In this document: one piece after another, positions 6,194 to 46,217 of the stretch
Position numbering within the stretch: position 1 is the first letter of the stretch
Layout of the letters: every line of letters starts with the position of its first letter
Origin: an uncultured Candidatus Rokubacteria bacterium
GTDB lineage: Bacteria > Methylomirabilota > Methylomirabilia > Rokubacteriales > CSP1-6
DNA: 64,000 nt
Direction: 5' to 3'
NCBI GenBank assembly: GCA_963789955.1
Contig: CAWBMV010000015.1
Span: 32,001 to 96,000 of the forward strand
The notes under the pieces: model-generated
Told to the model about the DNA's origin: nothing
Databases searched by the model: none
The model's input: only the letters and a program-made list of their open reading frames with translations
Translations under genes and position numbers: made by a program

Positions 6194-7363
6194 TCAGGAC
6201 CTGCCTAGCCGCGCAGGCGCGGCGAGTGGTGCAGAGGCGGCGCTGGGCCACGCGGCCGCGTCGGCGCGACGTGCGGCGAGCGTCGCCTTCAGATTCAGCA
6301 CGGGCTGTTCGATGTAGCGGAAGGACGCCGCCGCCAATGCAAACGTCACGAGCCACGCGAGCAGCACCGCCATCGGATGGGCCTCGGGTTTCCACAACGG
6401 ACCGGCCACGTAGAACACCGGGTAGTGCCAGAGGTAGAGCGCATAGGAGCGCCGGCCGAGCCACGTGAGCGGCGCCCAGCCCAGCAGATCGCCGCACGGC
6501 GACGACGGCAACAGCGCCGCAACGATGACGACGGCGGACGCCACGGCAGCCCAGGTGCTGACGCTCGCGAGCACGTAGTCCACCGGGAAGTGCGCGCGCA
6601 CGATGAGGCCGAGCAGCGCGAGGCCCGCCAGCACGCCGAGCACGTTCCACACGACGACGGCGCGGCGCGTGCGGCGAAAGAGCTGCGAGGCGCAGAAGAT
6701 CCCGAGCGCGCAACCGACGAGCACCGGGTCGGCGTGGGCGTCGAGTCCGACGTAGATCCGCGCCATCCCCGTCGGCGTGCTCATGATCGTGAACCGATAG
6801 GCCACTGCGAGTCCCACGGCGGCCACCACGATGAGCAAGAGCGCCCAGCGGCGGCGGACCATGCGACCCAGGAGCAGCAGGACCGGGGGCCAGATCGCGT
6901 AGAACTGCTCCTCGACCGCCAGCGACCAGGCGTGACCGAGCAATCCCTGGGGTAGTCCATAGACGATCGCCCAGTTCGCCGTGCAGAAGATGACGGACAA
7001 TACGAACCCCACCGTTCCGAGACTCGGATCCCACACGATCATCGCGCCGCCGGCGATCACCACCAGCGGTGCGAGCGCCGGCAGCAGACGCAGGGCTCGT
7101 CGCACGTAGAACGCGCGGAAGGACACGTGACCGGTCGATGCGAGCTCATCGAGCAGCAAGCTCGTGATGAGAAAGCCACTGAGCACGAAGAACATGTCGA
7201 CGCCGAGGAAGCCGCCGGTCAGAATGCCCGTGTTATAGAGCATGACCGCCAGGATGGAAACGCCGCGAAAGCCGTCGAGGGCCGGCCGGTAGCCTAGCCG
7301 GAAGCTCCGGCGTTCTGACAAGATCGGGCCAGAAGCGCATGACTGACTGGCGTATTCCGCCAC
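6194..7363 (-). CDS. Acyltransferase family 3 (OafA/OatA-like) membrane O-acyltransferase
   Basis: YRPALDGFRG, GFLGVDMFFVLSGFLIT, HAWSLAVEEQFY, SYALYLWHYP; GTG start at 7363 after GGAGG. Confidence 0.92.
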   Translation of the reverse strand: MAEYASQSCASGPILSERRSFRLGYRPALDGFRGVSILAVMLYNTGILTGGFLGVDMFFVLSGFLITSLLLDELASTGHVSFRAFYVRRALRLLPALAPLVVIAGGAMIVWDPSLGTVGFVLSVIFCTANWAIVYGLPQGLLGHAWSLAVEEQFYAIWPPVLLLLGRMVRRRWALLLIVVAAVGLAVAYRFTIMSTPTGMARIYVGLDAHADPVLVGCALGIFCASQLFRRTRRAVVVWNVLGVLAGLALLGLIVRAHFPVDYVLASVSTWAAVASAVVIVAALLPSSPCGDLLGWAPLTWLGRRSYALYLWHYPVFYVAGPLWKPEAHPMAVLLAWLVTFALAAASFRYIEQPVLNLKATLAARRADAAAWPSAASAPLAAPARLGRS

Positions 7364-7369
7364 TTCGCC

Positions 7370-7390
7370 CCTCCGTCTACTAGACGGAGG
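7370..7390. promoter_or_regulatory. Inverted repeat overlapping the acyltransferase RBS
   Basis: CCTCCGTCTA-C-TAGACGGAGG, perfect 10-bp arms. Confidence 0.55.
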
Positions 7391-7454
7391 CAAACCCTGG
7401 GCCAGCATCCACGGCGCCGCCGGCCGTCTACCCCTACGGCGTACGAGCGTGAAA

Positions 7455-7545
7455 CGCGCGCGCGGCGGTCGACGTCGACCAGATGGCCCTTCCACTTGCG
7501 GATCTTGCCCGCGACGATCACGGTCTCGACGTTGGTGCGCAGGCG
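7455..7545 (-). pseudogene. Remnant of an amidohydrolase-family C-terminus
   Basis: Minus-strand peptide RTNVETVIVAGKIRKWKGHLVDVD resembles the final strands of TRZ/ATZ-like amidohydrolases; rest of gene absent. Confidence 0.5.
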
Positions 7546-7634
7546 CTCATAGCGCTGTTTCGGATTCGGATCCCCGGCTGTGATGACGAGCGGCCCGACG
7601 TTCACACGTCGGGCCGCTCCCGACACCTCGGGTA

Positions 7635-8886
7635 CTACGACAGCTTCGGCCAGACCGCCTTGGCGACGGCGATGCTTTCGGGATGCACGGCGACCGGGCG
7701 GCCCTTCTGCCACTGCACGATGCAGAGCTCGGCGCCGACGCGGCGGCCGTTGTCGTCGTACTTCACGCGGCCGTCGGGGAAGAGCTTCGCCGGCCCGTCC
7801 TTGAGGTCGATCTTGTGCATCATCTCGCCCAGCTTCTTGCGATCGGTGGACGCCGTCCGCTCCAGCGCCTCCTTGAAGATCATCACGTGCGCGTACGGGA
7901 AGATCGAGTCGTGGCCGAACCAGGGCTCGTTGGTCTTGGCCATGAAGCGCTTCTCGAGATCGCCGATATCCTTGCCCGGCCAGTTGGCCAGCCCCACGAT
8001 CATGCCCTCCAGATGCTCCTTGCCGGCGATCTTCATCAGCTCCGGCACCGTCCAGTGACCGCCGCCGCCGACCAGCGGCACCGTGCTGGCGGTGATGCCG
8101 CGCTCCGCGAACTTGTCGAGCAGGAGCTTGTCGTCGCCGACGTTCGTCGACTGGCACACGATGAAGTCCGGACGGCCGGAGCGGATCTTCTGCACCAGGG
8201 TTGTCGCGTCGGCGAGCGGCGGCGTGTAGACTTCGTCGGCCACGATCGTCAGGCCCAGGTCCTTCGCCACGTGATCGCGAATCGGCTTCATGAAGCTGAC
8301 CGCGGCGGCCGAGTTGTCGCCGACGAACGCCACCTTCGTCGGGCGCCCGCTCCCGGCCTTGGCCGCCAGGTCGACGACGCGCGGCAGCAGCGCGCTGGCC
8401 TGCGCGTCTCGCGGTCGGCGCCGACTGGAAGATGTACTTGAAGCCGCGTCCGGTGATCAGGTCGGAGTAGGAGAGCGTGAGCCACGGCAGCTCCGCGCGC
8501 TCGGTCACCTCGGTCACCGCGAGCGTGAAGCTCGACAGCCAGCAGCCGATGCCGCCGACCACGTCGGGCTCTTGCGCCACCAGCCGCTGCGCGGCGTTCT
8601 TGGCCTTCTCCGCGCTGTCCCCGGTGTCGTAGAGGACCAGCTTCAGCTTGGCCCCACCGAGGGCTTTGACGCCGCCGCTCTTGTTCACGTCCTCGATCGC
8701 CAGCTCGGCGCCCATCTGCTCCAGGATGCCCTGGCGCGCCCACGGACCGGACAGCGGGACGACCAGCGCGATCTTCACCTCTTTCGGGTTCTGCGCGCGC
8801 GCGCGACGTGGCGCGAGCGCCGTGGCGGCACCGGCGAGTCCAATCTTGATCGCGGTCCGACGTCCAAACGGCGTCAGCGTGCTCAT
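7635..8886 (-). CDS. Branched-chain amino acid-type (LivK/PBP1) ABC substrate-binding protein, Tat-like signal, frameshift near 8410
   Basis: GRRTAI signal; VKIALVVPLSG..A..G, AIEDVN..GGV; two ORF pieces join. Confidence 0.88.
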
Positions 8887-8928
8887 GCCTATCATCTCCC
8901 GTGTGGTTGCGATTCCATGGTGGTCGCT

Positions 8929-9645
<717 letters not shown>

Positions 9646-9660
9646 GCGGCGCGTCCGGCG

Positions 9661-11433
9661 CTACGCATTCTGGCGAGCCAGCCATTTCTTGCCGAGGTAG
9701 GCCTCGATCACCGAGGTGTCCTCGACGACGGCGCGCGGCAGCCCCGTCGCCAGCACGCGGCCGTGGTCCAGCACCACGAACCGGTCGGCGAGCCGCATCA
9801 TCGCGTGCATTGTATGCTCGATGATGCAGATCGTCACACCCTGCTCGCGCAACCCGGCCAGCACGGTCAGGACGCTGTCGCATTCTTCTCGACCCAGCCC
9901 GGCCAAGGTTTCGTCCAGCAACAGCAATCGCGGATTGCCGGCCAGCGCGCGGGCGAGCTCCATCAAGCGAAGCTGCTTGTTCGTGAGCTGTCCCGCCGCC
10001 AGACCCGACTGATCCTGGAGCCCGACCTGATGCAGCGCCCGCACCGCCGAGGCGATGGCGTCGCGATCCGAGAGACCGGAGCCGTAGGCTCCGACGATCA
10101 CGTTGTCGAGCACCGGCAGGCGGGTGAAGCTGCGCACCACCTGAAACGTGCGCCCGACGCCCATCCGGCACACCTCGAACGTCTTGCGGCCGAGCATCTG
10201 CTGGCCGGCAAGCTGCGCCGAGCCTTCGTCGGCCGAGAGCACGCCGTTCAGCACGTTGAACAGGGTCGTCTTGCCCGCGCCGTTCGGCCCGATGATGCCG
10301 AGGATCTCGCCCGCGGTGACCGAGAAGCTCACTTCGCTGACCGCTTTCAGGCCGCCGAAAGCTCGTGAGACATGCTCGACGACGAGCAGCGGCACACCCA
10401 CGCGGGCCGATACGCGGCGCGGCGCGGACGCCGTCGCGGTCGGCATCAGATCGGGAATCGGTGCCGCGGCTTTCGGGCGGAACCAGCGGTCGCGGACGGT
10501 CCAGAACAGCCCGTCGGGCGACAGCAGCATGACGGCGATGATGGCGGTGCCGTACACGACGCCCTGGATGCCGGGCAGATAGGTCCCGAGCTCGGCTTGC
10601 AACGTTTCGGCGAGAGGCACCAGGATCGCGGCGCCGATCAGCGGCCCCCACACCGACGCCACGCCGCCGAACAAGGTGACCACCACCGCCTGCGCCGAGA
10701 CGAGCATGCCGAACACGGAATCCGGCGTGATGACCAGCAGGACGCGCGCGTAGAAGCCGCCGACGACCGCCGCGATCATGCCCGACACGACCAGCGAGCG
10801 CATCTTCCACAGCCGCGCATTGATGCCCGCCGCCTCGGCGGCGAGCTCGTTCTGTCTGATCGCCAGCAGGGCCAGGCCGAAGCGCGAGTTCTCGATGATC
10901 AGCGAGACGACCACGCCGCCGATCAGCAGGCATACCGCGATCAAGGTGTAGATGCGCGGCTCGCTGAACTCCATGAACGCCGCCGGATTTTCCCGGTGCA
11001 TCGGGATCGACACTTCCTGAAAGCCGAGATACTGCAGCACGTAGAGGATGGCGAGCGGGTAGGCCAGCATCGACAGCGCGAAGTAGTGCCCGCGCAAGCG
11101 GAACGTGGGCAGGCCGATCGCGATCGCGGCCAGTCCGCCGAGGATCATGCCGAGCACGATGCCGAGCCAGGGCGAGAGGCTCCAGTAGACGACGGCCAAG
11201 GTGACCGTGTACGCGCCGATGCCGAAGAACGACGCGTGGCCGAACGACAGCTGGCCGCCGTAGCCGGACAGGATGTTCCACGAGACGCCGAACAGCGCCC
11301 ACACCGGGACGAGCGTGAGGATCAGCTGGTAGTAGCTGTTCTTGACGAAGAGTGTGAGCACCAGGTACGCGACGGACAGCACGGCCAATGTCGTCAAGCC
11401 GCGCTTGAGCTGTGGCCCGGTCCCGTACCTCAT
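9661..11433 (-). CDS. Fused LivM permease / LivG ATPase
   Basis: WNILSGYGGQLSFGHA permease half followed by GPNGAGKTT...RTFQ...LLLDE ATPase half. Confidence 0.92.
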   Translation of the reverse strand: MRYGTGPQLKRGLTTLAVLSVAYLVLTLFVKNSYYQLILTLVPVWALFGVSWNILSGYGGQLSFGHASFFGIGAYTVTLAVVYWSLSPWLGIVLGMILGGLAAIAIGLPTFRLRGHYFALSMLAYPLAILYVLQYLGFQEVSIPMHRENPAAFMEFSEPRIYTLIAVCLLIGGVVVSLIIENSRFGLALLAIRQNELAAEAAGINARLWKMRSLVVSGMIAAVVGGFYARVLLVITPDSVFGMLVSAQAVVVTLFGGVASVWGPLIGAAILVPLAETLQAELGTYLPGIQGVVYGTAIIAVMLLSPDGLFWTVRDRWFRPKAAAPIPDLMPTATASAPRRVSARVGVPLLVVEHVSRAFGGLKAVSEVSFSVTAGEILGIIGPNGAGKTTLFNVLNGVLSADEGSAQLAGQQMLGRKTFEVCRMGVGRTFQVVRSFTRLPVLDNVIVGAYGSGLSDRDAIASAVRALHQVGLQDQSGLAAGQLTNKQLRLMELARALAGNPRLLLLDETLAGLGREECDSVLTVLAGLREQGVTICIIEHTMHAMMRLADRFVVLDHGRVLATGLPRAVVEDTSVIEAYLGKKWLARQNA

Positions 11434-36632: not shown

Positions 36633-37357
36633 ATGCGACGACTCCTGATCCTGCTCGCGCTTGCGGTGCTGACGGAAGGGTGCTCGACCGCCCCCGTCCT
36701 CCGAAGCAGGCGTTCGACTTCAAGACCACCGCGCTCTTCAAGCTGCCGTGCGACACCCCGGAGGTGCTGGCGGCCAAGCGGGAGATCCCGGACGACGGCC
36801 TCGAGACGAACGACAACCAATGTAATACGGTCCACCTCCTGAGGATGGTCGACCGCTTCATCTCCATCCAGGAGGCCGACGTGGCCAAGGGGATTCTCGG
36901 CGACACCATCGCCGAGGTCCGGGCCAAGGGCTTCAGCATCTTCACCGACGCCGAGGAACGCAAGCGGCGTCCGAACACCAAGCCCCTCTACGGCAACGAC
37001 GCGCTGGCCGCCGTGGGCATGAGCGTGGCGCCGCCCCCCCTGCAGAAGCCCGAGGAGATCAAGGCCTACGCCGATTTCATGGCCTCCCACTACGGCGAGG
37101 AGTACTACGAGAAGGACATGAAAAAGGTGGTGGACCGCTTCTGTCTCAACCGGCGCGACTCCAACGAACTGGGCGACGACCGGACGTTCGCGATCGTGTG
37201 GCGCAGTGGCCACGTCTTCAAGCGGGTGATCAAGGGCGGGCCGATCAACAACCCGAAGCAGGAGCGCGCGTTCCTGGTCTGTCCCGGCGATTTCATCGTC
37301 GACACCCTCATCGGCATCGGCAACAAGGCCGCGACCGGCTTGATGGTCATACCCTAA
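36633..37357 (+). CDS. Hypothetical lipoprotein (frameshift near 36700)
   Basis: MRRLLILLALAVLTEGC lipobox-like signal continuing into the 36581..37357 frame. Confidence 0.65.
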
Positions 37358-37370
37358 TCGGCGTCCAGCA

Positions 37371-38414
37371 TCACGGCCTCGTCCACACAATCAGCTCGCG
37401 GCCGCTGATCGTGAGCGTCGTGCCGAGCTTGTCGCAGCGTCGCACGATCTGCTCGACCGCTTCCGTGTCGTGGCGCGGGTCACAGACATAGGTTTCGTTG
37501 CGCTCGTTGTGGCGCACCAGAGAGAACGCCACCTGCACGAGCGCCGAGTCGTCGAAGGTGAGACGGGCGAGCATTCCGACCCAGTCGCCGTGGGCCCGGC
37601 GGCCATGCCCCGTGTGGAACGAGAAGCTGCCGAGGCCGTAGAAAACCGGCTTGCCACGATACATCTCGACCGCGCACGCGTAGTGCGGTCCGTGGCCCAT
37701 GACGACGTCGGCGCCGGCGTCGATCGCGGCGTGGGCGATCTCCACCTGATAGTCGAGGACGTCCTCGAACAGTCCCCAGTGATGAGAGGCGACCACGATG
37801 TCGGCGCCGGCGCGCAGCGCCCGTAGATCGGTCGCGAACTCGGCGAGCGACTTGACGTCCGCCCAGGTGTGGATCGCGGGCGGAAGCCCGGGACGATTCG
37901 CGGGCGGGACCCCGGGGCGCTGCGTCTGCAGCGGCGGCTCGTACGCGGTGCGTCCCGTCAGGACGGCGACACCGGCGGAATTGTCGGTGGCCTCGTGGCC
38001 GGTGGCCCAGTAGACGGAGGTCCGTTGCACGAAGCCGAAACGCAATCCTTCGTGGGTGACGATGGCGGGAGCGCGCGCAGCCTGGCGATTCACGCCGGCT
38101 CCGGTCCACGAAATGCCAATCGCTTCGAGCTGTCTGAGCGACGACCGAATCGCCTCCTCGCCGTAGTTCACGTTGTTGGCGTTGCCGACCGCGTGAAACC
38201 CGCCAATGACGAGAGCCTGAGCTGATGCGAGCGGAGCATAGAAGCCCTCGCGTTCCGCCGAGTGCCCGGTGGCGGGCTCATGGAAGCAGCATTCCAGATT
38301 GCCGAACAGCACGTCGGCCTCGCGTAACGTGTCCCGGATGAGCGCGAACGGCACGTGAGGATCGGTGACGTTCAGGAGGTTGATGTCGCCGGTCAGCATC
38401 AGCGCTCGTTTCAT
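37371..38414 (-). CDS. CapA/PGA_cap-family metallophosphoesterase-fold protein
   Basis: GDI, GNLEC, ANN, SHHWG, GHGPH, YGLGSF. Confidence 0.88.
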   Translation of the reverse strand: MKRALMLTGDINLLNVTDPHVPFALIRDTLREADVLFGNLECCFHEPATGHSAEREGFYAPLASAQALVIGGFHAVGNANNVNYGEEAIRSSLRQLEAIGISWTGAGVNRQAARAPAIVTHEGLRFGFVQRTSVYWATGHEATDNSAGVAVLTGRTAYEPPLQTQRPGVPPANRPGLPPAIHTWADVKSLAEFATDLRALRAGADIVVASHHWGLFEDVLDYQVEIAHAAIDAGADVVMGHGPHYACAVEMYRGKPVFYGLGSFSFHTGHGRRAHGDWVGMLARLTFDDSALVQVAFSLVRHNERNETYVCDPRHDTEAVEQIVRRCDKLGTTLTISGRELIVWTRP

Positions 38415-38449
38415 GGCTCACCCTGTATCGTCCACGCGCTCGCGCCCGC

Positions 38450-39235
38450 TCAGGGCCGGACGCCGGGCGCTTCGATCGCCATCCCCCGAGCCCGCCACAT
38501 CAGGAACAGCTCGAGCTCGACGAGCTCAGGGGCGCCGTATTCGTAGGGCTCGGCGCGGATTCCGACCAGACAGTTGCGCAGCCGTCGCTGAAGCGAGCCG
38601 AGGCTCTGCCATTCGAGCCGGTAGACCGGATAGCCGGTCGGATGCGCCTGCGGGATCGCGTTGCCGGCGAGGCGCTTGCCCCAGTTATCGTCGTGACACT
38701 GGCTGCAGGCGAGGTTGAGCTGGCCCTGCCGCCGATAGAACGCGGCGCGGCCGTTGTCGAGAAACGGCTGCACGCGACCGTCGATCGCGATGTCGATCGG
38801 CAGGCCGCGTGACTGGCGCGCCACGAACGCCGTCAGGGCGAGGAGCTCCCGGCTCTCGTAGGCGAGCGCCGGCGCCTGCTGACGCTCGGCCCGGCACAGG
38901 TTGATGCGCTGCTCGAGGTTCACGGGCCGCTTCAGCTTGGCGTCGAGCGCCGGATAGCGCGCCGCCACGCCCTTCATGCTGGCGCGCGCCTCGCCGTGGC
39001 AGTCGGCGCAGGCGCGGCCGGCGGTGCCGGCCTTGCGCGCCCACAGCCCGCCGCCCTCGAGCACCCCGAGCATTCCGGGATTGGTTGCATCATCGTCCTG
39101 CATCGCGCGCGTCTCACGGCTCATGAAGTCGTAGCCCGAGCGGCGCTCGGCCTGCGGGATCTCGCCGGGGAACGCCGTCCCGGCGAGCAGGGTCAGCGCC
39201 GTCGCGGCGAGGAGCCGGACAAAGCTCCCTCTCAA
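38450..39235 (-). CDS. soxA: SoxA-like diheme cytochrome c
   Basis: QDDDATNPG, CADCH, RINLCR, GQLNLACSQCH, YPVYRLEWQSLGSLQRRLRNC; TTG start overlaps soxZ stop. Confidence 0.92.
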   Translation of the reverse strand: MRGSFVRLLAATALTLLAGTAFPGEIPQAERRSGYDFMSRETRAMQDDDATNPGMLGVLEGGGLWARKAGTAGRACADCHGEARASMKGVAARYPALDAKLKRPVNLEQRINLCRAERQQAPALAYESRELLALTAFVARQSRGLPIDIAIDGRVQPFLDNGRAAFYRRQGQLNLACSQCHDDNWGKRLAGNAIPQAHPTGYPVYRLEWQSLGSLQRRLRNCLVGIRAEPYEYGAPELVELELFLMWRARGMAIEAPGVRP

Positions 39236-39552
39236 TCGACCGTGATCGCGGCCGACTCGGTCGCCGAGAAGCCGTTGTCGCCGGTCCACTGGAACGCGAG
39301 GGTCCCGCTCTCGGTGGCGACGGTCGAGAAGACGAAGAAGGGATTCGCGGCGATCGCCGGATGGAGCTCGGCCCGGAAGACCTCCGTGCCGTTGTAGGTG
39401 CACACGAAGAGGCGGACGATGTCGCGCGGGATCGACGTGCCGAGCTGGCTGCGGCGATACCCGGTCTCCATCGGGTGCGAGATCAGGGTCTTGATCTCGA
39501 TGACCTCACCGCGCCGGGCGCGAGGCGGCACGTTGACGAGCGCGTTGGCCAC
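39232..39552 (-). CDS. soxZ: SoxZ-like carrier-complex protein
   Basis: LISHPMETGYRR, IAANPF, W..DNG. Confidence 0.92.
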   Translation of the reverse strand: MANALVNVPPRARRGEVIEIKTLISHPMETGYRRSQLGTSIPRDIVRLFVCTYNGTEVFRAELHPAIAANPFFVFSTVATESGTLAFQWTGDNGFSATESAAITVD

Positions 39553-39554
39553 GA

Positions 39555-40019
39555 CTACGCGTCCTCGAGGCAGGCGGCCAAGGTCACCACGACCGCCGCA
39601 CTCGCGGACCAGAACGAGCCGTCGCTGAGCTCGCCGATCGCGGTCACCGTCTGGGTGTTGGCGAGCCGGATGCGCGTCGACACGCGCGCCAGCCCGGCGC
39701 GCGGCCCGAAGCGGAAGCTCACGACCTCGGGCTGAGGGTTCAGCTCGGTGAACACGTGGATCGCGCGCACATGATCGGCCGGCGTCATCGGACTCTCGAC
39801 ACTGACCGTGAGCGGCACGGTGTTGCCGTTCTCGGAGAGCGGCGGCAGCTCGAGCTTCACCCGGCCCTTCGAGACGCGGGACGAGCCGACGACCTTGCGG
39901 ATGGCGTCTTGCATCGCCTCGGGGGTTGCATGCGCGGGCGCCACGGTGATGACGGCCCCGAGTCCCAGGCCGGCCGCGGCGGCTTGCAAGAATGTGCGGC
40001 GCGTCGTCTCGCGGTCCAT
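39555..40019 (-). CDS. SoxY paralogue with AACLE-type arm, Tat signal
   Basis: TRRTFL signal, P.LSENGNTVP, NPQP, STRIRLA; ends VTLAACLEDA rather than VTIGGCGG. Confidence 0.88.
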   Translation of the reverse strand: MDRETTRRTFLQAAAAGLGLGAVITVAPAHATPEAMQDAIRKVVGSSRVSKGRVKLELPPLSENGNTVPLTVSVESPMTPADHVRAIHVFTELNPQPEVVSFRFGPRAGLARVSTRIRLANTQTVTAIGELSDGSFWSASAAVVVTLAACLEDA

Positions 40020-40447
40020 CAGTCTTTCAACGTCGTCAAGAAGGCCACCACGTCCTCGATCTGCTCGGCGCTCAGGACGGGCTTGCCGCGCCACGCCGGC
40101 GCGACCCGCGCGAGCCCATCGGTTCGATGATACGCCGGCATGATCGTGGCCGCGTTGATTCGGCTCGAATCGACGATCCGAAGACGCAGCTGACCCTCGG
40201 ACCAGCGCTTGCCGGCACCCGCCAGATCGGGCGCGAGATTGCCCTGGAAGCGCTCCTCCGGAAACGGTCCGCTGTGGCAGAGCAGGCACAGGCCGAGCTG
40301 GCGGTTGGTGACGATCGCGCGGCCGCGCGCGGGGTCGCCCTTGGCACCGGTGAGCGACGTCGGGATCGAGTCTTGCGCCGCCGCCACCCCGCCGCTCGCC
40401 GTGGCCACCGTGCAGCAGGCGGCGACGACGGCCGCGGCGAATCTCAC
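40019..40447 (-). CDS. soxX: SoxX-like monoheme cytochrome c
   Basis: GDPARGRAIV, CLLCH, GNLAPDL, TIMPAY, IEDVVAFL; GTG start overlaps fccB stop. Confidence 0.9.
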   Translation of the reverse strand: MRFAAAVVAACCTVATASGGVAAAQDSIPTSLTGAKGDPARGRAIVTNRQLGLCLLCHSGPFPEERFQGNLAPDLAGAGKRWSEGQLRLRIVDSSRINAATIMPAYHRTDGLARVAPAWRGKPVLSAEQIEDVVAFLTTLKD

Positions 40448-41718
40448 CCGAACGCCTCGGCCGTGATCGTGTGGAACCAGGCCTCGGCGAGTATCGCCTC
40501 TGCCTTGCGCGTCTCGCGCGGCGCGTCCGACGGGCTCACGCCGCCGGAGCCGGGAACGTCGGCGAGCTGTCCGCCCGTGGGCTGGTAGACGCCGGCGACG
40601 GAAATCCCGTAGTCCGGCGCCACGAGGCTGTAGCACGTGTTGATCAGCTTGGGGCTCGGCGGCGGGCTGCCGGCGAGGAGCGTCGCCACCGCGGCGGCGC
40701 ACACCTTGGCCTGGGAGTTCGCGGCGAACGCCGACTTCGGCATCGCGCCGGCGATCGCGGCGTCGCCGATGACGTGGATGCCGGCCTGTAGCTTCGATTC
40801 GAACGTGACCGGATCGATCGGGCACCAGCCGCTGCGATCGGCGACGCCGGCGACCTCCGCGATGCGGCCCGCCTTCTGCGGCGGGATGACGTTGGCCACC
40901 TTGGCCTGGTGCTTACCGAAGTCGGTCACGAGCGTGAGTGTGGCGGCGTCGACCGAGGTGACATTGCCGCCCTTGGAGAGTGGCACCCACTCGAGCAGGC
41001 CCGGATAAAGCTCGGCCCAGGCGGCCTGGAACAGCCGCTGCTTCGAGAACGCGTCCTTCGCGTCGAGCACGAGCAGCTTCGACTTCGGCTTCTTCGTCTT
41101 CAGGTAGTGAGCGATCAGGCTCGCGCGCTCGTAGGGCCCGGGCGGACACCGGAACGGATTCGCCGGCGCCGAGATGATGACGAGCCCGCCGTCGTCCATC
41201 GCCTCGAGCTGGCGGCGCAGCAGCAGGGTCTGCTCGCCCGCGCGCCACGCGTGCGGCATCACGGCGGCCGCCGCCTCGTCGTAGCCGGGCAGCGCCCCCC
41301 ATTTGATGTCGATGCCGGGCGCCAGCACGAGCCGGTCGTACGACAGCTTCGCGCCGTCGGCGAGCGTGACCGATTTCGTCGGTGCGTCGATCGCGGTCGC
41401 GGCCGTGCGGACGATCGTGATCCCATCGGCGGCGACGCGCTCGTAGGTGAACTGTTGCGCGGAGAGCTCCCGCAGGCCGCCGATCACGGAGTTACTGAAC
41501 GGGCACGCGATGAACGTCGCGCTCGGCTCGACCAGGGTCACCACGATGCGCGGGTCGGTGTGGCGGAGCGCGCGGGCACAGCTCGCGCCGGCGAAGCCTC
41601 CGCCGACGACCACGACACGGGGCCGGCCCGCTTGAGCGCGCGCCGGAAGGGGACAGAGGGCCGCGGCGGCCGTCGCCGCGACGCCGAGCTTGAGGAACGC
41701 GCGACGGTCGGTCTTCAT
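40444..41718 (-). CDS. fccB: Flavocytochrome c sulfide dehydrogenase flavoprotein (FccB/SoxF), Tat signal
   Basis: DRRAFL, GGGFAG, CPFSN, CPPGPYERAS, PKSAFAANSQ, NTCYS. Confidence 0.9.
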   Translation of the reverse strand: MKTDRRAFLKLGVAATAAAALCPLPARAQAGRPRVVVVGGGFAGASCARALRHTDPRIVVTLVEPSATFIACPFSNSVIGGLRELSAQQFTYERVAADGITIVRTAATAIDAPTKSVTLADGAKLSYDRLVLAPGIDIKWGALPGYDEAAAAVMPHAWRAGEQTLLLRRQLEAMDDGGLVIISAPANPFRCPPGPYERASLIAHYLKTKKPKSKLLVLDAKDAFSKQRLFQAAWAELYPGLLEWVPLSKGGNVTSVDAATLTLVTDFGKHQAKVANVIPPQKAGRIAEVAGVADRSGWCPIDPVTFESKLQAGIHVIGDAAIAGAMPKSAFAANSQAKVCAAAVATLLAGSPPPSPKLINTCYSLVAPDYGISVAGVYQPTGGQLADVPGSGGVSPSDAPRETRKAEAILAEAWFHTITAEAFG

Positions 41719-42008
41719 TTTTGTTCGGCGTACCAGGCGGCGATCGCCTGGATCTCGTCGTCGGTGAATCCCTTGGCGATCCTGTCCATGACGGTGGCTG
41801 CGCGTTCGCCCGAGCGGAAGTCATGCATCGCTTTGACGATCTCGGCGCGATCGCGCCCGGCGAGCCGCGCCACGGGCGAGGGGCCGCGCGCCGACGAGGG
41901 ATGACAGCCCGAGCACGCCGCGGCGCCCGCCGGCGGCTCGGCCGATGCGACGGTGGCCGCCGCGATCGATACACACGCGATCACGGCGGCCACGACACTA
42001 CGCATCAC
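41715..42008 (-). CDS. Small monoheme cytochrome c (FccA-like partner)
   Basis: Signal peptide, CSGCH, TVMDRIAKG. Confidence 0.88.
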   Translation of the reverse strand: MMRSVVAAVIACVSIAAATVASAEPPAGAAACSGCHPSSARGPSPVARLAGRDRAEIVKAMHDFRSGERAATVMDRIAKGFTDDEIQAIAAWYAEQK

Positions 42009-44191
42009 TCACACCATCTGGTAGCCGTGGTTCTTGAGCGGGAACGTGCGGATGCGCTTCCCGGTCGCCCGGAACATGGCGTTCAGGACCGCCGGCGCCG
42101 CCACGCAGATCGTCGGCTCGCCGACGCCGCCCCAGAATCCGCCGGACGGCATGATGATCGACTCCACCTTCGGCATCTGTGCGATCTTCATCGAGTCGTA
42201 GTTGGTGAAGTTCGTCTGCTCGATGGCGCCGTCCTTCACCGTGCACTCTTCCATGAAGACCGCCGACAGACCATAGACGAACGAGCCGGCGATCTGGCGC
42301 TCGATCTGCCCGGGGTTGACGGCATAGCCGGGATCGGTCGCGCAGACGATCCGCCGCACCTTCACCTTGTCGCCGCCACTGACGGACACCTCCGCGCACG
42401 CGGCCACGTAGCTGCCGAACGCCATCATGTGCGCCAGCCCTCGGTGCACGCCCTGCGGGGCCGGCTTGCCCCATCCGGCTCGGTCGGCCACGGCGTTCAG
42501 CACCGCGAGATGCTTGGGATGCTTGCTCATCAGCTTGCGCCGGAACTCGAGCGCGTCCTGACCGGCGGCCGCCGCGAGCTCGTCCATGAAGCACTCCAGG
42601 AAGATCGCATTCTGGTTGATGTTCACGCCGCGCCAGAATCCGGGCGGGACGTGCGTGTTGCGCATCGCGTGGTCGATCAGGAGATTGGGCACGGTGTAGC
42701 CGAGCGTGAAATCACCGCTCGGATCGACACCCTGGAACGTCGCGTTGTCCCGGCCGTCCTGGAGGTTCTGCGGGAACACGGAGGCCAGGATCGACTGGCC
42801 CGACAGCCGCATGTGCAGGCCGACGAGATTGCCGCTCGCGTCCAGCCCGCCGCTCATCTTCGCCTGCATGACCGGGTGATAACGGCCCTGCTGCATGTCT
42901 TCCTCGCGCGACCACAGGAGCTTCACGGGCGTGCCCGGGACCTGCTTGGCGATCCGCACGGCCTGCGTGACGTAGTCGTGGAAGGCGCCGCGGCGACCGA
43001 AGCCGCCGCCGAGGTTGATCTTGTAGACCTCGCACTTGTCGGCTGGCAAACCGGACGCCGCCAAGGTCGCCGCGAACGCGGCCTCGCCGTTCTGCGTCGG
43101 CACCCAGACCTCGCAGCGATCATCCGTGTATTTGGCCGTCGCGTTCATCGGCTCCATCGGCGCGTGGTTCTGGAACGGATACGCGTACACCGCCTCGACC
43201 TTCTTCGCAGCGCCGGCGATCGCGCCCTTCACGTCGCCGATCTGGGTCCGCACGAAGGCCTGATCGGCGTCGAGGCCTTCCTTCAGCGTGTCGGCGATCG
43301 TGGCGCTCGACACCTTCGCGTTCGGCGCCCTCGTCCCAGACGATCGGCAGCGCATCGAGCGCGGTCTTGGCCTGCCACCACGTGTTCGGCGACGACCGCG
43401 ACCGCGGAGTCGCCGACCTGCACGACGTGCTTCACGCCGGGCATGCTCTGCGCCTTGGCGGCTTCGAAGCTCTTCACCTTGCCGCCGAACACCGGGCACT
43501 CCTTGATCGCGGCGTTGAGCATTCCCGGCATTTTGAGATCGAACCCGTAGACCTGCGCGCCGGTCACCTTCTGTACGGTGTCCAGGCGCTTCACCGACTT
43601 GCCGATGATCTTCCACTCCTTGGGATCCTTGAGCGGGACATCGGCCGGCGGCGTCAGCTTCGCGGCGGCTTCCGCCACCTTGCCGTACGTGGTCGTGCGA
43701 CCGGACGGCTTGTGCGTGATGACGCTGTTGGCGGCGCTGCACTCGGCGGCCGGCACGCCCCAGGCATTGGCCGCGGCCTGCACCAGCATGACGCGAGCGG
43801 CGGCGCCGCCCTTGCGGACGTACTCGTTGGACTGTCGGATGCCGCGGCTGCCGCCCGTGGAGAAATCGCCCCACACGCGCTTGCGCGCGACGGACTGGCC
43901 GGGCGTCGGATACTCGGTGGTCACCTTCGTCCAGTCGCAGTCGAGCTCCTCGGCGACCATCTGCGCCAGACCGGTGAGCGTGCCCTGTCCCATCTCGGAG
44001 CGGGCGATCCGGACCACGACCGTGTCGTCCGGGCGGATGACCACCCAGGCGTTGATCTCGGGCGCGCCGTCCTGCGCTCGAACGACATTGGCGCCGAACG
44101 GGATCTTCAGGCCGAGGGTGAGCCCGGCGCCGACGGCCGCCGTGCCGATGACGAACGAGCGCCGATCGATCTTCGGGGTCTTGATGATCAT
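42009..44191 (-). CDS. IorB-type molybdopterin oxidoreductase large subunit, Tat signal (frameshifts near 43330-43385)
   Basis: DRRSFV, SEMGQG, TGGS, HAPMEPMN, LGGGFGRR, GGVGEP. Confidence 0.9.
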
Positions 44192-44201
44192 GGCTCTCCC
44201 T

Positions 44202-44651
44202 CTATGCCTTCGCCGCGGCGTGAATGGCTTCGCGCACCTGCTGGAACGTACCGCAACGGCAGATGTTGGTGATCCCCGCGTCGATGTCGGCGTCGGTCGG
44301 CTTCGGCTTGTCCTTCAGAAGCGCCGCCACCGCCATGATCATCCCGGCCTGGCAGTAACCGCACTGGGGCACGTCGTAGTCGACCCAGGCCTTCTGGACC
44401 TTGTGCAAGACGCCGCCATTCGCCAGGCCCTCGATCGTGGTGATCTGCTTACCCTCCGCCGAGGCGACCGGCAGCACGCAGGAACGGACCGCCTTGCCGT
44501 CGAGGTGCACCGTGCAGGCGCCGCACATCGCGACGCCGCATCCGTACTTGGTCCCCGTGAGGCCGACCTGCTCTCGGATCGCCCACAGAAGGGGCGTGCT
44601 GGGGCTGACATTGACCTCTTGGGTTTTGCCGTTGATGGTCAGGCGCGCCAT
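44202..44651 (-). CDS. IorA-type 2x[2Fe-2S] small subunit
   Basis: [30 protein letters not shown]. Confidence 0.92.
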
Positions 44652-44721
44652 GATCTTTCCTCCCAGGATTGCGGTGCCGTGGTGCGAATATCCGCGATCA
44701 CGCTCACAAGAGCAACCTTCT

Positions 44722-45329
44722 CTACAGAGGCTTGATCTGCACCTTGCGCCACTTGATGGCGCCGCCGGGCGCGTCCTTGGGCCCGTTGCCGAACTGAAGC
44801 GCGATCGGTCCCTGCGCGTGCTGACTGTCCTGAACATTGGCGGTCTGGACGCCGTTCAGCACCACGGTGAGCTGCGAGCCCTTGGCCGTGATCTCGTACG
44901 TGTTCCACTTGCCGCCGGCCTTGGGCATGGGCGACACCTTGGCCACGTTGACGATTCCCCCGGTGCCGTAGGCCGGCTCGGGGCGCTGATCGTAGATGTT
45001 CACCTCGTAGGCGTTGGTCGCGGTGATCGCGTTGGGATCGGAGCAGCGAAGGAAGACGCCGCTGTTCGTGGTGTGATCCGCCCAGAACTCCACCCGGATC
45101 TGAAAATCCTTGTACGAGCTCTTCGAGACGAGGAAGCCGCCCTTGCCCTTGTCCGCGATGATGGCGCCGGCCTCGGAGCGCCAGTTGGCATCACCGATGC
45201 GGTTCCAGTTGTCCAGACCGGTCGCGCCATCGATGAGCGTGGTCCAGCCGGCGTCGGACTGACCGAACGACATGTAGGCGCACCCGAGAACGGTCAACCC
45301 GATCCCATGACGATGGATGGGCGTCTCAT
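44722..45329 (-). CDS. DUF1080 domain exported protein
   Basis: GW..LIDG, YKDF, NSGVF, YEVNIYD, WNTYEI, GPIALQ; signal region frameshifted. Confidence 0.85.
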
Positions 45330-45399
45330 GGCGATCTCCTGCGGCGGAATGGTTCGATGACGTCGTGTCGTTCGTCATCGCGCCGACACGCGGAGATAC

Positions 45400-46217
45400 T
45401 CGCCCACCGCGACGGATACCTTCGACACCACTGAGCGGACGTGGTGCGAGACATACGGTCTACTCGTTCACGGCACGCGCGACCTCCGAGATCGACGGCG
45501 ACTGCTCCGCTCACGGAGCGACCTGGAACGAGGTGGCGAGTCCGTGACGGCGCTCGCGCCGATCGCCCGCTCGGCGATGACGGCGAGCGGTGTCCGGGGC
45601 GCACGACGCTCGCGTCGAACGCGGTCGTCGACCGGGTGGCGCTACCGCGACGTCCGGTGCCGATCCGCGTGCCAGAATCTCGACTTCGAGTGCGAGATCG
45701 GCGTCGTCATTGGACGCGGGCGAGAACCTCGACCCGAAGAACGCCGTCGACCACGTCGTCGGCTACTGCCTGTTCAACGACTGGAGCGCCCGCGACGTGC
45801 AGCGCAACGAGATGGAGATGCGGCTCGGCCCCGCCAAGGGCAAGGACACCGCGACGACCCTCGGGCCGTGGCTCGTGACGAAGGACGAGCTCGAGCCGTG
45901 GCGCGCCCGATGGGCTACGATCTCCAGATGGTCGTCTCGGTCAACGGCCGCGAGTACGGCCGCGACCGCTGGTCCAACGCCTTCTGGTCGATCGGCGAGA
46001 TCATCGCGTACGCGTCTCGAGGGACGAAGGTGTGCGCCGGGGACGTGCTGGGACGGGCACCTGTGGCAACGGCTGTCTGGCCGAGCTGCGGACGCGGGAC
46101 GCCGCCGCGTATCCGTGGCTCGCGGTCGGCGATGAGATCGTCTACGAGGTGGAGCAACTCGGGCGCATCGCCAACCGGATCGTCGCCGGCCCGCCGCTGA
46201 TTCCGCTGCGTCCCTGA
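45400..46217 (+). CDS. Fumarylacetoacetate-hydrolase family protein; 5' part garbled, possibly a pseudogene
   Basis: LDFECEIG, FNDWSARDVQ, KGKD.ATTLGPWLVT, GT.GNGCL; start not resolvable. Confidence 0.7.

What the first reader, a model, noticed from the sequence alone, without database searches (positions are those of the whole stretch)
39555..39600. SoxY swinging arm reads VVVTLAACLEDA instead of VTIGGCGG
Seen: the carrier Cys is kept but is flanked by Ala-Ala and followed by acidic LEDA. Known: canonical SoxY binds sulfur on a flexible GGCGG arm; from memory a paralogous 'AACIE arm' family is defined without a known function. Inference: the stiffer acidic arm fits different partner active sites and insulates this carrier from SoxB/SoxCD. 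The linked SoxA keeps both CxxCH motifs and the active-site Cys (RLRNC), so it can probably still form S-S bonds.
Basis: partly seen in the sequence, partly recalled or inferred. Interest (0 to 1): 0.7.

Follow-up and report, generated by a model that had tools for sequence, protein, structure and literature searches.

The report
AACIE-arm SoxY in molybdoenzyme operon
This gene encodes an ordinary member of a named but never-tested family of SoxY-like sulfur-carrier proteins whose cysteine arm reads LAAC-LEDA instead of GGCGG; it sits in a widely conserved operon with its own SoxXA cytochromes and an exported molybdenum enzyme that likely works on whatever the arm carries.

Summary
Window 39555-40019 (minus strand) encodes a 154-aa Tat-signal SoxY homologue with one cysteine, ending VVVTLAACLEDA. 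It scores above the curated cut-off of NCBIfam TIGR04487, "SoxY-related AACIE arm protein", and below that of true SoxY. The tail is not an artefact: all 120 closest database relatives also keep LAAC.

It belongs to a tightly packed operon, iorA-iorB-fccA-fccB-soxX-soxY'-soxZ-soxA. In 64 of 64 related loci with enough flank, and in 13 of 13 more distant ones, the AAC-arm SoxY lies with its own SoxX, SoxZ and SoxA and a Tat-exported xanthine-oxidase-family molybdenum enzyme (IorAB). FccB is frequent but optional.

Of 50 carrier genomes, 42 also have SoxB. The 8 without SoxB also lack a true SoxY, so the module can stand alone.

Function is untested. The only literature found is the unexpressed "second sox cluster" of Starkeya novella (2013) and the dispensable soxY2 of Bradyrhizobium. 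My best guess is that the arm delivers a sulfur adduct to IorAB rather than to SoxB/SoxCD.

This scan has reported the same module on other genomes at least ten times. It is a new member of a known kind, of moderate interest.

The parts
44202..44651 (-). iorA: small 2x[2Fe-2S] subunit of a xanthine-oxidase-family molybdenum enzyme. It has no signal peptide of its own.
   Evidence: NCBIfam hits to the gamma/small subunits of glyceraldehyde, xanthine and Pao dehydrogenases, all below their equivalog cut-offs. Present in 64 of 64 full loci.
42009..44191 (-). iorB: Tat-exported molybdopterin-binding large subunit. As assembled it is broken by two 1-nt insertions, near 43385 and at 43323-43326.
   Evidence: It reads in three frames against the intact 727-aa orthologue of L009, and the insertions show up in the DNA alignment. 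Public-run contigs lack these bases. The closest solved structure is 8gy3_C, the large subunit of an aldehyde dehydrogenase, at E 8.9e-72. The Glu of the G-E-P motif is invariant in 69 orthologues.
41715..42008 (-). fccA: small monoheme c-type cytochrome (SoxE-like).
   Evidence: Weak Pfam Cytochrome_CBB3 hit and a CxxCH motif in the translation. Found by tblastn in only 28 of 64 full loci.
40444..41718 (-). fccB: flavocytochrome c sulfide dehydrogenase flavoprotein (SoxF-like) with a Tat signal.
   Evidence: Pfam FCSD_central and FCSD-flav_bind. E 1.7e-151 to 5n1t_A, with the three cysteines (ACPFSN, FRCPPG, NTCYS) aligned. Present in 59 of 64 full loci.
40019..40453 (-). soxX': monoheme cytochrome. 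The start codon is uncertain and overlaps the end of fccB.
   Evidence: TIGR04485 79.9 bits against a cut-off of 61. Present in 79 of 79 loci with enough flank.
39555..40019 (-). soxY': AACIE-arm carrier protein, 154 aa, Tat signal, single Cys150.
   Evidence: TIGR04487 202.2 bits against a cut-off of 172; PF13501; translation.
39555..39593 (-). The arm VVVTLAACLEDA plus the stop codon.
39232..39552 (-). soxZ': partner subunit. Its GTG start lies 2 nt after the soxY' stop.
   Evidence: TIGR04490 82.5 bits against a cut-off of 76. Present in 80 of 80 loci.
38450..39235 (-). soxA': diheme cytochrome. Its TTG start overlaps the soxZ' stop (TTGA).
   Evidence: TIGR04484 225.2 bits against a cut-off of 110. 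Aligned to 1H31_A at E 1.5e-52 with both CxxCH motifs and RLRNC. Present in 71 of 71 loci with enough flank.

Best explanation
The gene at 39555-40019 (minus strand) encodes a Tat-signal SoxY paralogue of NCBIfam family TIGR04487 whose only cysteine sits in a VTLAAC-LEDA tail. It is the carrier of a conserved iorA-iorB-fccA-fccB-soxX-soxY'-soxZ-soxA operon, in which the arm is predicted to take a sulfur adduct, likely loaded by its own SoxXA, to the molybdenum hydroxylase IorAB rather than to SoxB/SoxCD.

Shown here:
- family membership;
- the operon and its tight packing;
- the near-universal linkage of AAC-arm SoxY with its own SoxX, SoxZ, SoxA and IorAB;
- catalytic motifs kept in SoxA', FccB and IorB;
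- occurrence of the module with and without canonical Sox genes.

Inferred:
1. All parts meet in the periplasm, given Tat signals on SoxY', IorB and FccB.
2. SoxXA' oxidatively couples a reduced sulfur species to Cys150. This could be sulfane made by FccB from sulfide, or thiosulfate.
3. IorAB oxidises the adduct with oxygen from water and passes electrons through IorA's 2Fe-2S clusters to c-type cytochromes.
4. The Ala-Ala/acidic arm matches these partners and keeps the carrier apart from SoxB/SoxCD.

I put the identity and the module at about 0.95 and the mechanism at about 0.35-0.4.
For: Membership: TIGR04487 202.2 bits against a cut-off of 172, and TIGR04488 below its cut-off.

Module, close relatives: 64 of 64 genome loci with at least 4.7 kb upstream and 1.6 kb downstream have IorA, IorB, SoxX, SoxZ and SoxA, and 59 of 64 have FccB. 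These come from Rokubacteria/Methylomirabilota, one Limnocylindria MAG, and Alpha- and Betaproteobacteria.

Module, distant relatives: in an even sample of 401 Pseudomonadota genomes, 14 of the 30 loci returned had AAC/SAC-type arms. All 13 fetched with wide flanks, at 43-62% identity to the window's SoxY', have the same six genes, and 8 of 13 have FccB.

Tightest link: in L019 one IorAB pair runs straight into soxY'-soxZ with no soxXA between. L041 has the order iorAB-soxY'Z'-soxXA.

Independence from canonical Sox: SoxB is over its cut-off in 42 of 50 carrier genomes. The 8 without it have 0 of 8 true SoxY, and 6 of them also lack SoxC. One of these is a record titled complete chromosome (L077).

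Catalytic residues: both CxxCH motifs and RxRxC in SoxA'; the Glu of the GEP motif invariant in 69 IorB orthologues; the FccB cysteines aligned to 5n1t.

No flanking gene family is shared by more than 31 of 93 loci.

Literature: the S. novella second sox cluster, with an XO-family Mo enzyme, is not induced by thiosulfate (PMC3797975, passages read). B. diazoefficiens soxY2 is not essential for thiosulfate oxidation (PMC5748708, passages read).
Against: - No experiment bears on the function.
- Xanthine-oxidase-family enzymes are known to hydroxylate activated carbon (aldehydes, N-heterocycles, CO), not sulfur (established knowledge, recalled). Step 3 is therefore chemically unprecedented.
- A Sox-like cycle needs a release step, and the stand-alone genomes have no SoxB.
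- The module co-occurs with full Sox in most carriers: SoxB in 42 of 50 and SoxC in 35 of 50. Cross-talk is therefore not excluded.
- In this assembly iorB is broken by two insertions. If these are real, the module would be defective here.
- AlphaFold2 shows no difference in order between the AAC and GGCGG arms.
- I could not verify that S. novella SoxY2 or B. diazoefficiens SoxY2 carry an AAC arm.
- The 80 close loci are related to one another, so their counts are not independent events.
Confidence: 0.45

Rival explanations
1. The module is a spare or alternative isoform set that loads sulfur compounds onto a second carrier, which is still processed by the canonical SoxB (and SoxCD where present). 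The arm differences would only tune substrate range.
For: 42 of 50 carrier genomes also have SoxB and 35 of 50 have SoxC. This genome has a true SoxY, SoxXA and SoxB on contig C12. SoxX', SoxZ' and SoxA' all pass the 'true' Sox HMM cut-offs. Isoenzyme ideas are mentioned in PMC3797975.
Against: 8 of 50 carrier genomes have neither SoxB nor a true SoxY. IorAB linkage is universal while SoxB is never adjacent. The soxY2 copy does not replace soxY1 in B. diazoefficiens (PMC5748708; its arm type is unverified). The S. novella cluster is not induced by thiosulfate.
Confidence: 0.12
2. IorAB is an ordinary periplasmic aldehyde or N-heterocycle dehydrogenase. The Sox-like cytochromes (SoxXA', FccA) serve mainly as its electron acceptors, and the carrier is not its substrate.
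For: The closest solved relative is the large subunit of an aldehyde dehydrogenase, 8gy3_C, at E 8.9e-72; my recollection is that this is a membrane-bound, cytochrome-linked enzyme. IorAB lacks an FAD subunit, so it needs a cytochrome acceptor. Where FccA and FccB are missing, SoxXA' are the only cytochromes in the cluster.
Against: This does not explain why SoxY'Z' is present in every locus (80 of 80 and 13 of 13). It also does not explain why iorB abuts soxY' directly in L019. The only known role of SoxXA is loading SoxY (established knowledge, recalled).
Confidence: 0.12
3. SoxXA', SoxY'Z' and FccB make a periplasmic persulfide that installs or repairs the terminal sulfido (Mo=S) ligand which xanthine-oxidase-family enzymes need. 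The carrier would serve IorAB as a sulfur donor, not as a substrate holder.
For: This fits the strict IorAB-SoxY'Z' linkage and the optional sulfide dehydrogenase. The sulfido ligand is essential and labile in this enzyme family (established knowledge, recalled).
Against: Four to six genes is a heavy investment for maintenance. Other exported enzymes of this family, such as PaoABC and the 8gy3-type aldehyde dehydrogenase, are not known to need such a system (recalled). Nothing here tests it directly.
Confidence: 0.12
4. The odd C-terminus is a sequencing or assembly artefact, or the gene is a decaying remnant.
For: The assembly has indel problems. iorB carries two 1-nt insertions, and the canonical soxA and soxB on C12 are split across frames.
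Against: The tail is identical in 107 of 121 close proteins and LAAC is kept in 121 of 121. An independent 1839-base contig covers the gene without gaps. The family motif recurs in 87 of 150 cluster representatives. The ORF is intact and translationally coupled to its neighbours.
Confidence: 0.01

Closest known systems
NCBIfam TIGR04487 (SoxY_para_1), 'SoxY-related AACIE arm protein'
   Same: It scores 202.2 bits over the full model length against a cut-off of 172. It has a Tat signal, a single C-terminal Cys in a V-T-L-A-A-C-[LIVT]-[ED] tail, and a SoxZ gene immediately downstream.
   Different: Position +1 is Leu (AACLE) rather than Ile. Leu is the commonest residue there among the representatives, at 31 of 87. 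The host is a Rokubacteria/Methylomirabilota-type MAG rather than a proteobacterium. The family has a name but no tested function.
Canonical SoxY of SoxYZ (Paracoccus pantotrophus 2OXG/2OX5; TIGR04488)
   Same: Same domain (PF13501, 112.4 bits), same register of the carrier Cys, E 2.3e-17 to 2OXG_Y, and pairing with SoxZ and SoxXA.
   Different: The arm is LAACLEDA, not IGGCGG. It scores below the TIGR04488 cut-off (114.1 against 125). It is never adjacent to SoxB or SoxCD and always lies with IorAB.
Second sox gene cluster of Starkeya novella (soxX2Y2Z2A2F2 plus the xanthine-oxidase-family Mo enzyme Snov_1975/1976; Kappler and Nouwens 2013, PMC3797975)
   Same: Same gene content: SoxXA, SoxYZ and SoxF-like flavocytochrome duplicates, no SoxB or SoxCD, and an XO-family Mo enzyme in the operon (passages read).
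   Different: I could not check that S. novella SoxY2 has an AAC arm. That cluster was barely expressed on glucose, methanol or thiosulfate, and its authors doubted a functional role. The breadth of conservation found here argues for a function.
Quinoprotein dehydrogenase-associated SoxYZ-like carrier (TIGR04557)
   Same: This is another SoxY-type carrier tied by gene context to a periplasmic dehydrogenase outside the Sox pathway, so it is an analogy for 'carrier plus non-Sox oxidoreductase'.
   Different: It is a fused SoxYZ. The window's SoxY' scores only 64.5 bits against a cut-off of 140. Its partner is a PQQ enzyme, not a molybdenum enzyme.
Aldehyde dehydrogenase large subunit, PDB 8gy3_C (closest solved relative of IorB)
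   Same: Full-length match at E 8.9e-72, with a twin-arginine leader region aligned and the same domain order.
   Different: The two are only distantly alike, and IorB meets no NCBIfam equivalog cut-off. The partners here are SoxY'Z' and SoxXA' rather than a multihaem cytochrome subunit (the latter is recalled, not tested).

Membership tests
TIGR04487 SoxY-related AACIE arm protein | HMM score at or above the curated cut-off (172 bits) over the full model | tested here: met
   202.2 bits, model positions 2-146 of 146. The genome search gives 201.6 bits.
TIGR04487 SoxY-related AACIE arm protein | C-terminal carrier Cys preceded by Ala-Ala and followed by an aliphatic then an acidic residue | tested here: met
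   The tail is ...VTLAAC-L-E-DA. The family profile comes from 87 representatives.
TIGR04487 SoxY-related AACIE arm protein | Twin-arginine signal and an adjacent SoxZ partner | tested here: met
   TIGR01409 17.9 bits against a cut-off of 16.7. SoxZ (TIGR04490, 82.5 against 76) starts 2 nt downstream.
TIGR04488 true SoxY (GGCGG) | HMM score at or above the cut-off (125 bits) | tested here: not met
   114.1 bits. The genome's other SoxY, on C12, scores 139.8-140.2 bits.
TIGR04488 true SoxY (GGCGG) | GGCGG swinging arm | tested here: not met
   LAACLEDA.
TIGR04488 true SoxY (GGCGG) | Works with SoxB (and SoxCD) in thiosulfate oxidation | not testable with these tools
   Context only. No SoxB or SoxCD lies in any of the 93 loci by the window's own queries. 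SoxB is absent from 8 of 50 carrier genomes.
Pfam PF13501 SoxY domain | Score above the gathering threshold | tested here: met
   112.4 bits against a threshold of 28.4. The AlphaFold2 model has mean pLDDT 86.7 and an all-beta core.
'Second sox cluster' type (S. novella) | soxX-Y-Z-A plus a soxF-like flavoprotein plus an XO-family Mo enzyme in one cluster, without soxB or soxCD | tested here: met
   Gene order in the window compared with the description in PMC3797975. The arm type of S. novella SoxY2 was not tested.

The most novel reading that the evidence does not exclude
IorAB is a carrier-protein-dependent molybdenum hydroxylase. Together with SoxXA' and the AAC-arm SoxY'Z' it forms a self-sufficient periplasmic pathway, independent of SoxB and SoxCD, that oxidises a sulfur or carbon-sulfur compound bound to a protein cysteine. 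That chemistry is not known for the xanthine-oxidase family, and the pathway is spread by horizontal transfer across soil Rokubacteria, Chloroflexota and Proteobacteria.
Probability: 0.35. Interest if true: 0.75.

Novelty: new member of a known kind. Interest (0 to 1): 0.4.

Why it matters
The AAC-arm SoxY module is common in soil and freshwater bacteria. About 3% of an even sample of Pseudomonadota carry it. Yet it has no known substrate.

If the molybdenum enzyme really acts on a carrier-bound adduct, two things would follow. A new reaction type would be added to the xanthine-oxidase family, and a new branch would be added to periplasmic sulfur oxidation. Metagenomic surveys that count every soxY/soxA/soxX as 'thiosulfate oxidation' would also need correcting. 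For this particular window the result is more modest: a correctly spotted but typical member of an already named family.

Tried and rejected
- **Complex prediction** (IorA + IorB 40-727 + SoxY' 32-154 of L009, as alignments A6/A5/A4). The queue was full and again at the permitted retry, so nothing was folded. The IorB-SoxY' docking question stays open.
- **First search for related loci** with the 67-sequence alignment A1 failed because it had no conserved stretch. It was repeated with the 13-sequence A2.
- **AlphaFold2 comparison of the two arms.** SoxY' residues 146-154 and true SoxY residues 166-171 are both coil after the last strand with low pLDDT at the tip. This gives no information on stiffness.
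- **SoxY family tree** (96 rows, quick IQ-TREE because the careful search did not finish). AAC and GGC arms separate with 3 label changes, but the split has only 79% SH-aLRT support. This is suggestive, not proof of one origin.
- **Search for further conserved neighbours.** No flank gene family is shared by more than 31 of 93 loci. The best local ones (an MFS transporter in 15 loci, amidohydrolase, ABC parts) are lineage-specific.
- **Promoter and terminator scan** of 37000-45600 found nothing above shuffles.
- **Literature.**
  - 'AACIE' was absent from the 25 papers listed; that search needed only one of its two terms, so the rest of the library is not shown to lack the word.
  - Among the 15 papers listed of 134, none holds iorB together with a sox term.
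  - The only listed paper with 'isoquinoline 1-oxidoreductase' plus soxY/soxZ mentions them separately (PMC4782131).
  - Sudo et al. 2024 (PMC11237559, sections 19-21 and a term search read) does not mention molybdenum, xanthine, aldehyde or TIGR04487.
  - Masuda et al. 2010 is not held, so the soxY2 result is cited second-hand.
- **RNA-library contigs** (X15, X16) cover most of the operon at 92% identity or more. Contigs cannot prove transcription, so this is only a weak hint.
- **A role as a SoxCD substitute** predicts anticorrelation with SoxC. None is seen: SoxC is present in 35 of 50 carrier genomes.

Full report
**Observation.** The minus strand of window 39555-40019 encodes a 154-residue protein.
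- It has a twin-arginine leader (MDRETTRRTFL...AHA) and a single cysteine, Cys150.
- The tail reads VVVTLAACLEDA. Bases 39558-39593 encode these 12 residues and 39555-39557 are the stop.
- Aligned to solved SoxY from Paracoccus (2OXG_Y, E 2.3e-17), Cys150 falls on the carrier cysteine of VTIGGC.

The tail is not chance and not an artefact.
- Of 121 proteins (the window's own plus the 120 best of 7935 hits), 107 end in the identical 12 residues and all 121 keep LAAC.
- Among the 150 best representatives of 50%-identity clusters, 87 have [AGST]-A-C-[ILVTM] at the C-terminus. In 79 of these 87, E or D follows two residues after Cys. A further 26 have GGC-type arms and 37 are fragments or other.
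- A 1839-base contig from an independent soil run spans the gene without gaps.

**Family.**
- NCBIfam places the protein in TIGR04487, 'SoxY-related AACIE arm protein', at 202.2 bits against a cut-off of 172. It falls below the cut-off of true SoxY, TIGR04488, at 114.1 against 125.
- Pfam sees an ordinary SoxY domain.
- Two database relatives carry exactly this NCBI name, in Methylomirabilota/Rokuibacteriota MAGs.
- A quick tree of 96 SoxY sequences groups AAC arms apart from GGC arms with three label changes, but branch support is weak at 79%.

**Surroundings.** Eight genes lie head to tail on the minus strand, with overlaps or gaps of 10 nt or less.
- They are iorA (44202-44651), iorB (42009-44191), fccA (41715-42008), fccB (40444-41718), soxX' (40019 to about 40453), soxY', soxZ' (39232-39552) and soxA' (38450-39235).
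- SoxX', SoxZ' and SoxA' pass the curated 'true' Sox cut-offs.
- SoxA' aligns to diheme SoxA 1H31 at E 1.5e-52, with both CxxCH motifs and the RLRNC cysteine in place.
- FccB matches a solved flavocytochrome c flavoprotein (5n1t_A, E 1.7e-151) with its three cysteine motifs aligned.
- IorAB is a xanthine-oxidase-family molybdenum enzyme: a small 2Fe-2S subunit plus a Tat-signal large subunit. It meets no equivalog cut-off.
- Its closest solved relative is the large subunit of an aldehyde dehydrogenase, 8gy3_C, at E 8.9e-72.
- The Glu of the G-E-P motif is invariant in 69 orthologues. From memory, this is the catalytic base of the family.

- By tblastn with the window's own proteins, all 64 loci with at least 4.7 kb upstream and 1.6 kb downstream contain IorA, IorB, SoxX, SoxZ and SoxA in the same order. 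FccB is in 59 of 64 and FccA is detectable in 28 of 64.
- Hosts include Rokubacteria/Methylomirabilota MAGs, a Limnocylindria MAG at 74% identity, Bradyrhizobium, Reyranella, Xanthobacteraceae, Hyphomicrobiaceae and Burkholderiales.
- These 80 loci are the closest relatives, so I also searched an even sample of 401 Pseudomonadota genomes. Nine exceed the TIGR04487 cut-off, and 14 of the 30 loci returned carry AAC/SAC-type arms such as AACTEE, SACTE, AACVIG, AACVVL, SACIDGG and AACVEP.
- All 13 fetched with 20-kb context, at 43-62% identity to the window's SoxY', have IorA-IorB-SoxX-SoxY'-SoxZ-SoxA. Eight of the 13 have FccB.
- In L019 an IorAB pair runs directly into soxY'-soxZ without soxXA, followed by a second complete unit.
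- Outside the module nothing is conserved: no flank family occurs in more than 31 of 93 loci.
- The invariant core is therefore IorAB + SoxXA' + SoxY'Z', with FccAB a frequent accessory.

**Relation to canonical Sox.**
- This genome (87% complete) also has a true SoxY ending VKVTVGGCGG, together with SoxXA and SoxB, on contig C12.
- It has no SoxC over the cut-off.
- Among 50 genomes carrying the module, 42 have SoxB over the cut-off and 35 have SoxC.
- The 8 without SoxB have no true SoxY either (0 of 8), and 6 of them also lack SoxC. One is a record titled complete chromosome (Reyranella sp., L077).
- MAG incompleteness weakens single absences, but the pattern says the module neither requires nor replaces the canonical system.

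**Literature.**
- Kappler and Nouwens 2013 (PMC3797975, passages read) describe a second sox cluster in Starkeya novella, soxX2Y2Z2A2F2, with an XO-family Mo enzyme. Its SoxAX/SoxYZ proteins were not detected, and transcription was very low on glucose, methanol or thiosulfate.
- Masuda et al. 2017 (PMC5748708, passages read) state that only soxY1, not soxY2, is essential for thiosulfate oxidation in B. diazoefficiens.
- I could not verify the arm type of either SoxY2; the 2010 primary paper is not held.
- Sudo et al. 2024 (PMC11237559, sections 19-21 read) classify SoxY arm signatures but do not mention a molybdenum partner.
- 'AACIE' was absent from the 25 papers listed, and none of the 15 papers listed holds iorB together with sox terms.

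**Mechanism.**
- Shown: membership, operon, linkage, retained catalytic motifs, and independence from SoxB in some genomes.
- Inferred:
  - SoxXA' couples a reduced sulfur species to Cys150. This could be sulfane from FccB-oxidised sulfide, or thiosulfate.
  - The arm carries the adduct to IorAB, which oxidises it.
  - The Ala-Ala/acidic arm matches these partners rather than SoxB/SoxCD.
- Against this reading:
  - sulfur oxidation is unprecedented for this enzyme family;
  - no release enzyme is evident;
  - AlphaFold2 shows both arm types as low-confidence coil;
  - the planned IorAB-SoxY' complex prediction could not be run.
- Rivals:
  - an isoform set feeding canonical SoxB;
  - IorAB as an ordinary aldehyde dehydrogenase using the Sox cytochromes as acceptors;
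  - a persulfide supply for the Mo=S ligand;
  - an artefact, which is excluded.

**State of the locus here.**
- iorB is read in three frames because of two 1-nt insertions relative to three relatives, near 43385 and at 43323-43326.
- Contigs from 4 of 4 public runs lack a base at 43323-43326, and contigs from 3 of 4 lack one at 43385. One of them is a contig that differs at 5 letters and one gap over 42897-43360.
- The canonical soxA and soxB of the same genome are also split across frames.
- Assembly error is the likelier reading, but this is not settled.

**Verdict.**
- The protein is a typical member of an already named, functionally untested family. The interesting part, the constant molybdenum-enzyme partner, was reached here independently.
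- This scan had already noted that partner on at least ten other genomes, and the 2013 paper mentions it once.
- It is a new member of a known kind, of moderate interest.

Noticed in passing
window 43323-43326 and about 43385 (iorB): There are two single-base insertions relative to three related loci, so iorB reads in three frames. Contigs of 4 of 4 (first site) and 3 of 4 (second site) public runs lack the extra base. This is probably assembly error, but it is not settled.
   Followed up: yes
L135 (G000:C12:279000-298000), 6701-10802: The genome's canonical cluster is true SoxY (GGCGG), SoxX, SoxA and SoxB. SoxA and SoxB are each split over two reading frames, which suggests an indel-prone assembly.
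   Followed up: partly
L135 2247-6651: Directly upstream of the true soxY lie an iron-sulfur subunit (TtrB/DsrO-like) and a 942-aa DMSO-reductase-family molybdoenzyme (PhsA-like, all below equivalog cut-offs). Both SoxY copies of this genome therefore neighbour a molybdenum enzyme, of different families.
   Followed up: no
own genome G000: There is no SoxC over the cut-off (best 130 bits against 420) in an assembly that is 87% complete. The canonical Sox system here may be the truncated, SoxCD-less type.
   Followed up: partly
L019 7362-15832 (Burkholderiales MAG): Two tandem paralogous modules are present. The first is iorA-iorB-soxY'-soxZ with the iorB end overlapping the soxY' start. The second is a more divergent iorA-iorB-soxX-soxY'-soxZ-soxA.
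   Followed up: partly
L043, L050, L064, L036, L073, L032, L034: One or two extra iorAB pairs lie in tandem upstream of the module. In L043, L050 and L064 the pair nearest fccA is the more divergent one (about 50% identity).
   Followed up: no
L012 (Limnocylindria MAG) versus Rokubacteria loci: The whole eight-gene module is 74-85% identical at protein level between a Chloroflexota-class MAG and Rokubacteria. This points to recent horizontal transfer, or to a binning error.
   Followed up: no
window 37371-38414 (minus strand): A 347-aa ORF lies 35 nt downstream of soxA'. It has a weak match to the lasso-peptide Trp epimerase MslH family (80.9 bits against a cut-off of 700). It is not found next to the module in any of the 93 other loci.
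   Followed up: partly
L057 3959-5380 and 14 other loci (L057 is a Bradyrhizobium record): An MFS transporter gene sits about 150 nt upstream of iorA on the same strand in 15 loci. It is a lineage-specific addition that might hint at a substrate.
   Followed up: no
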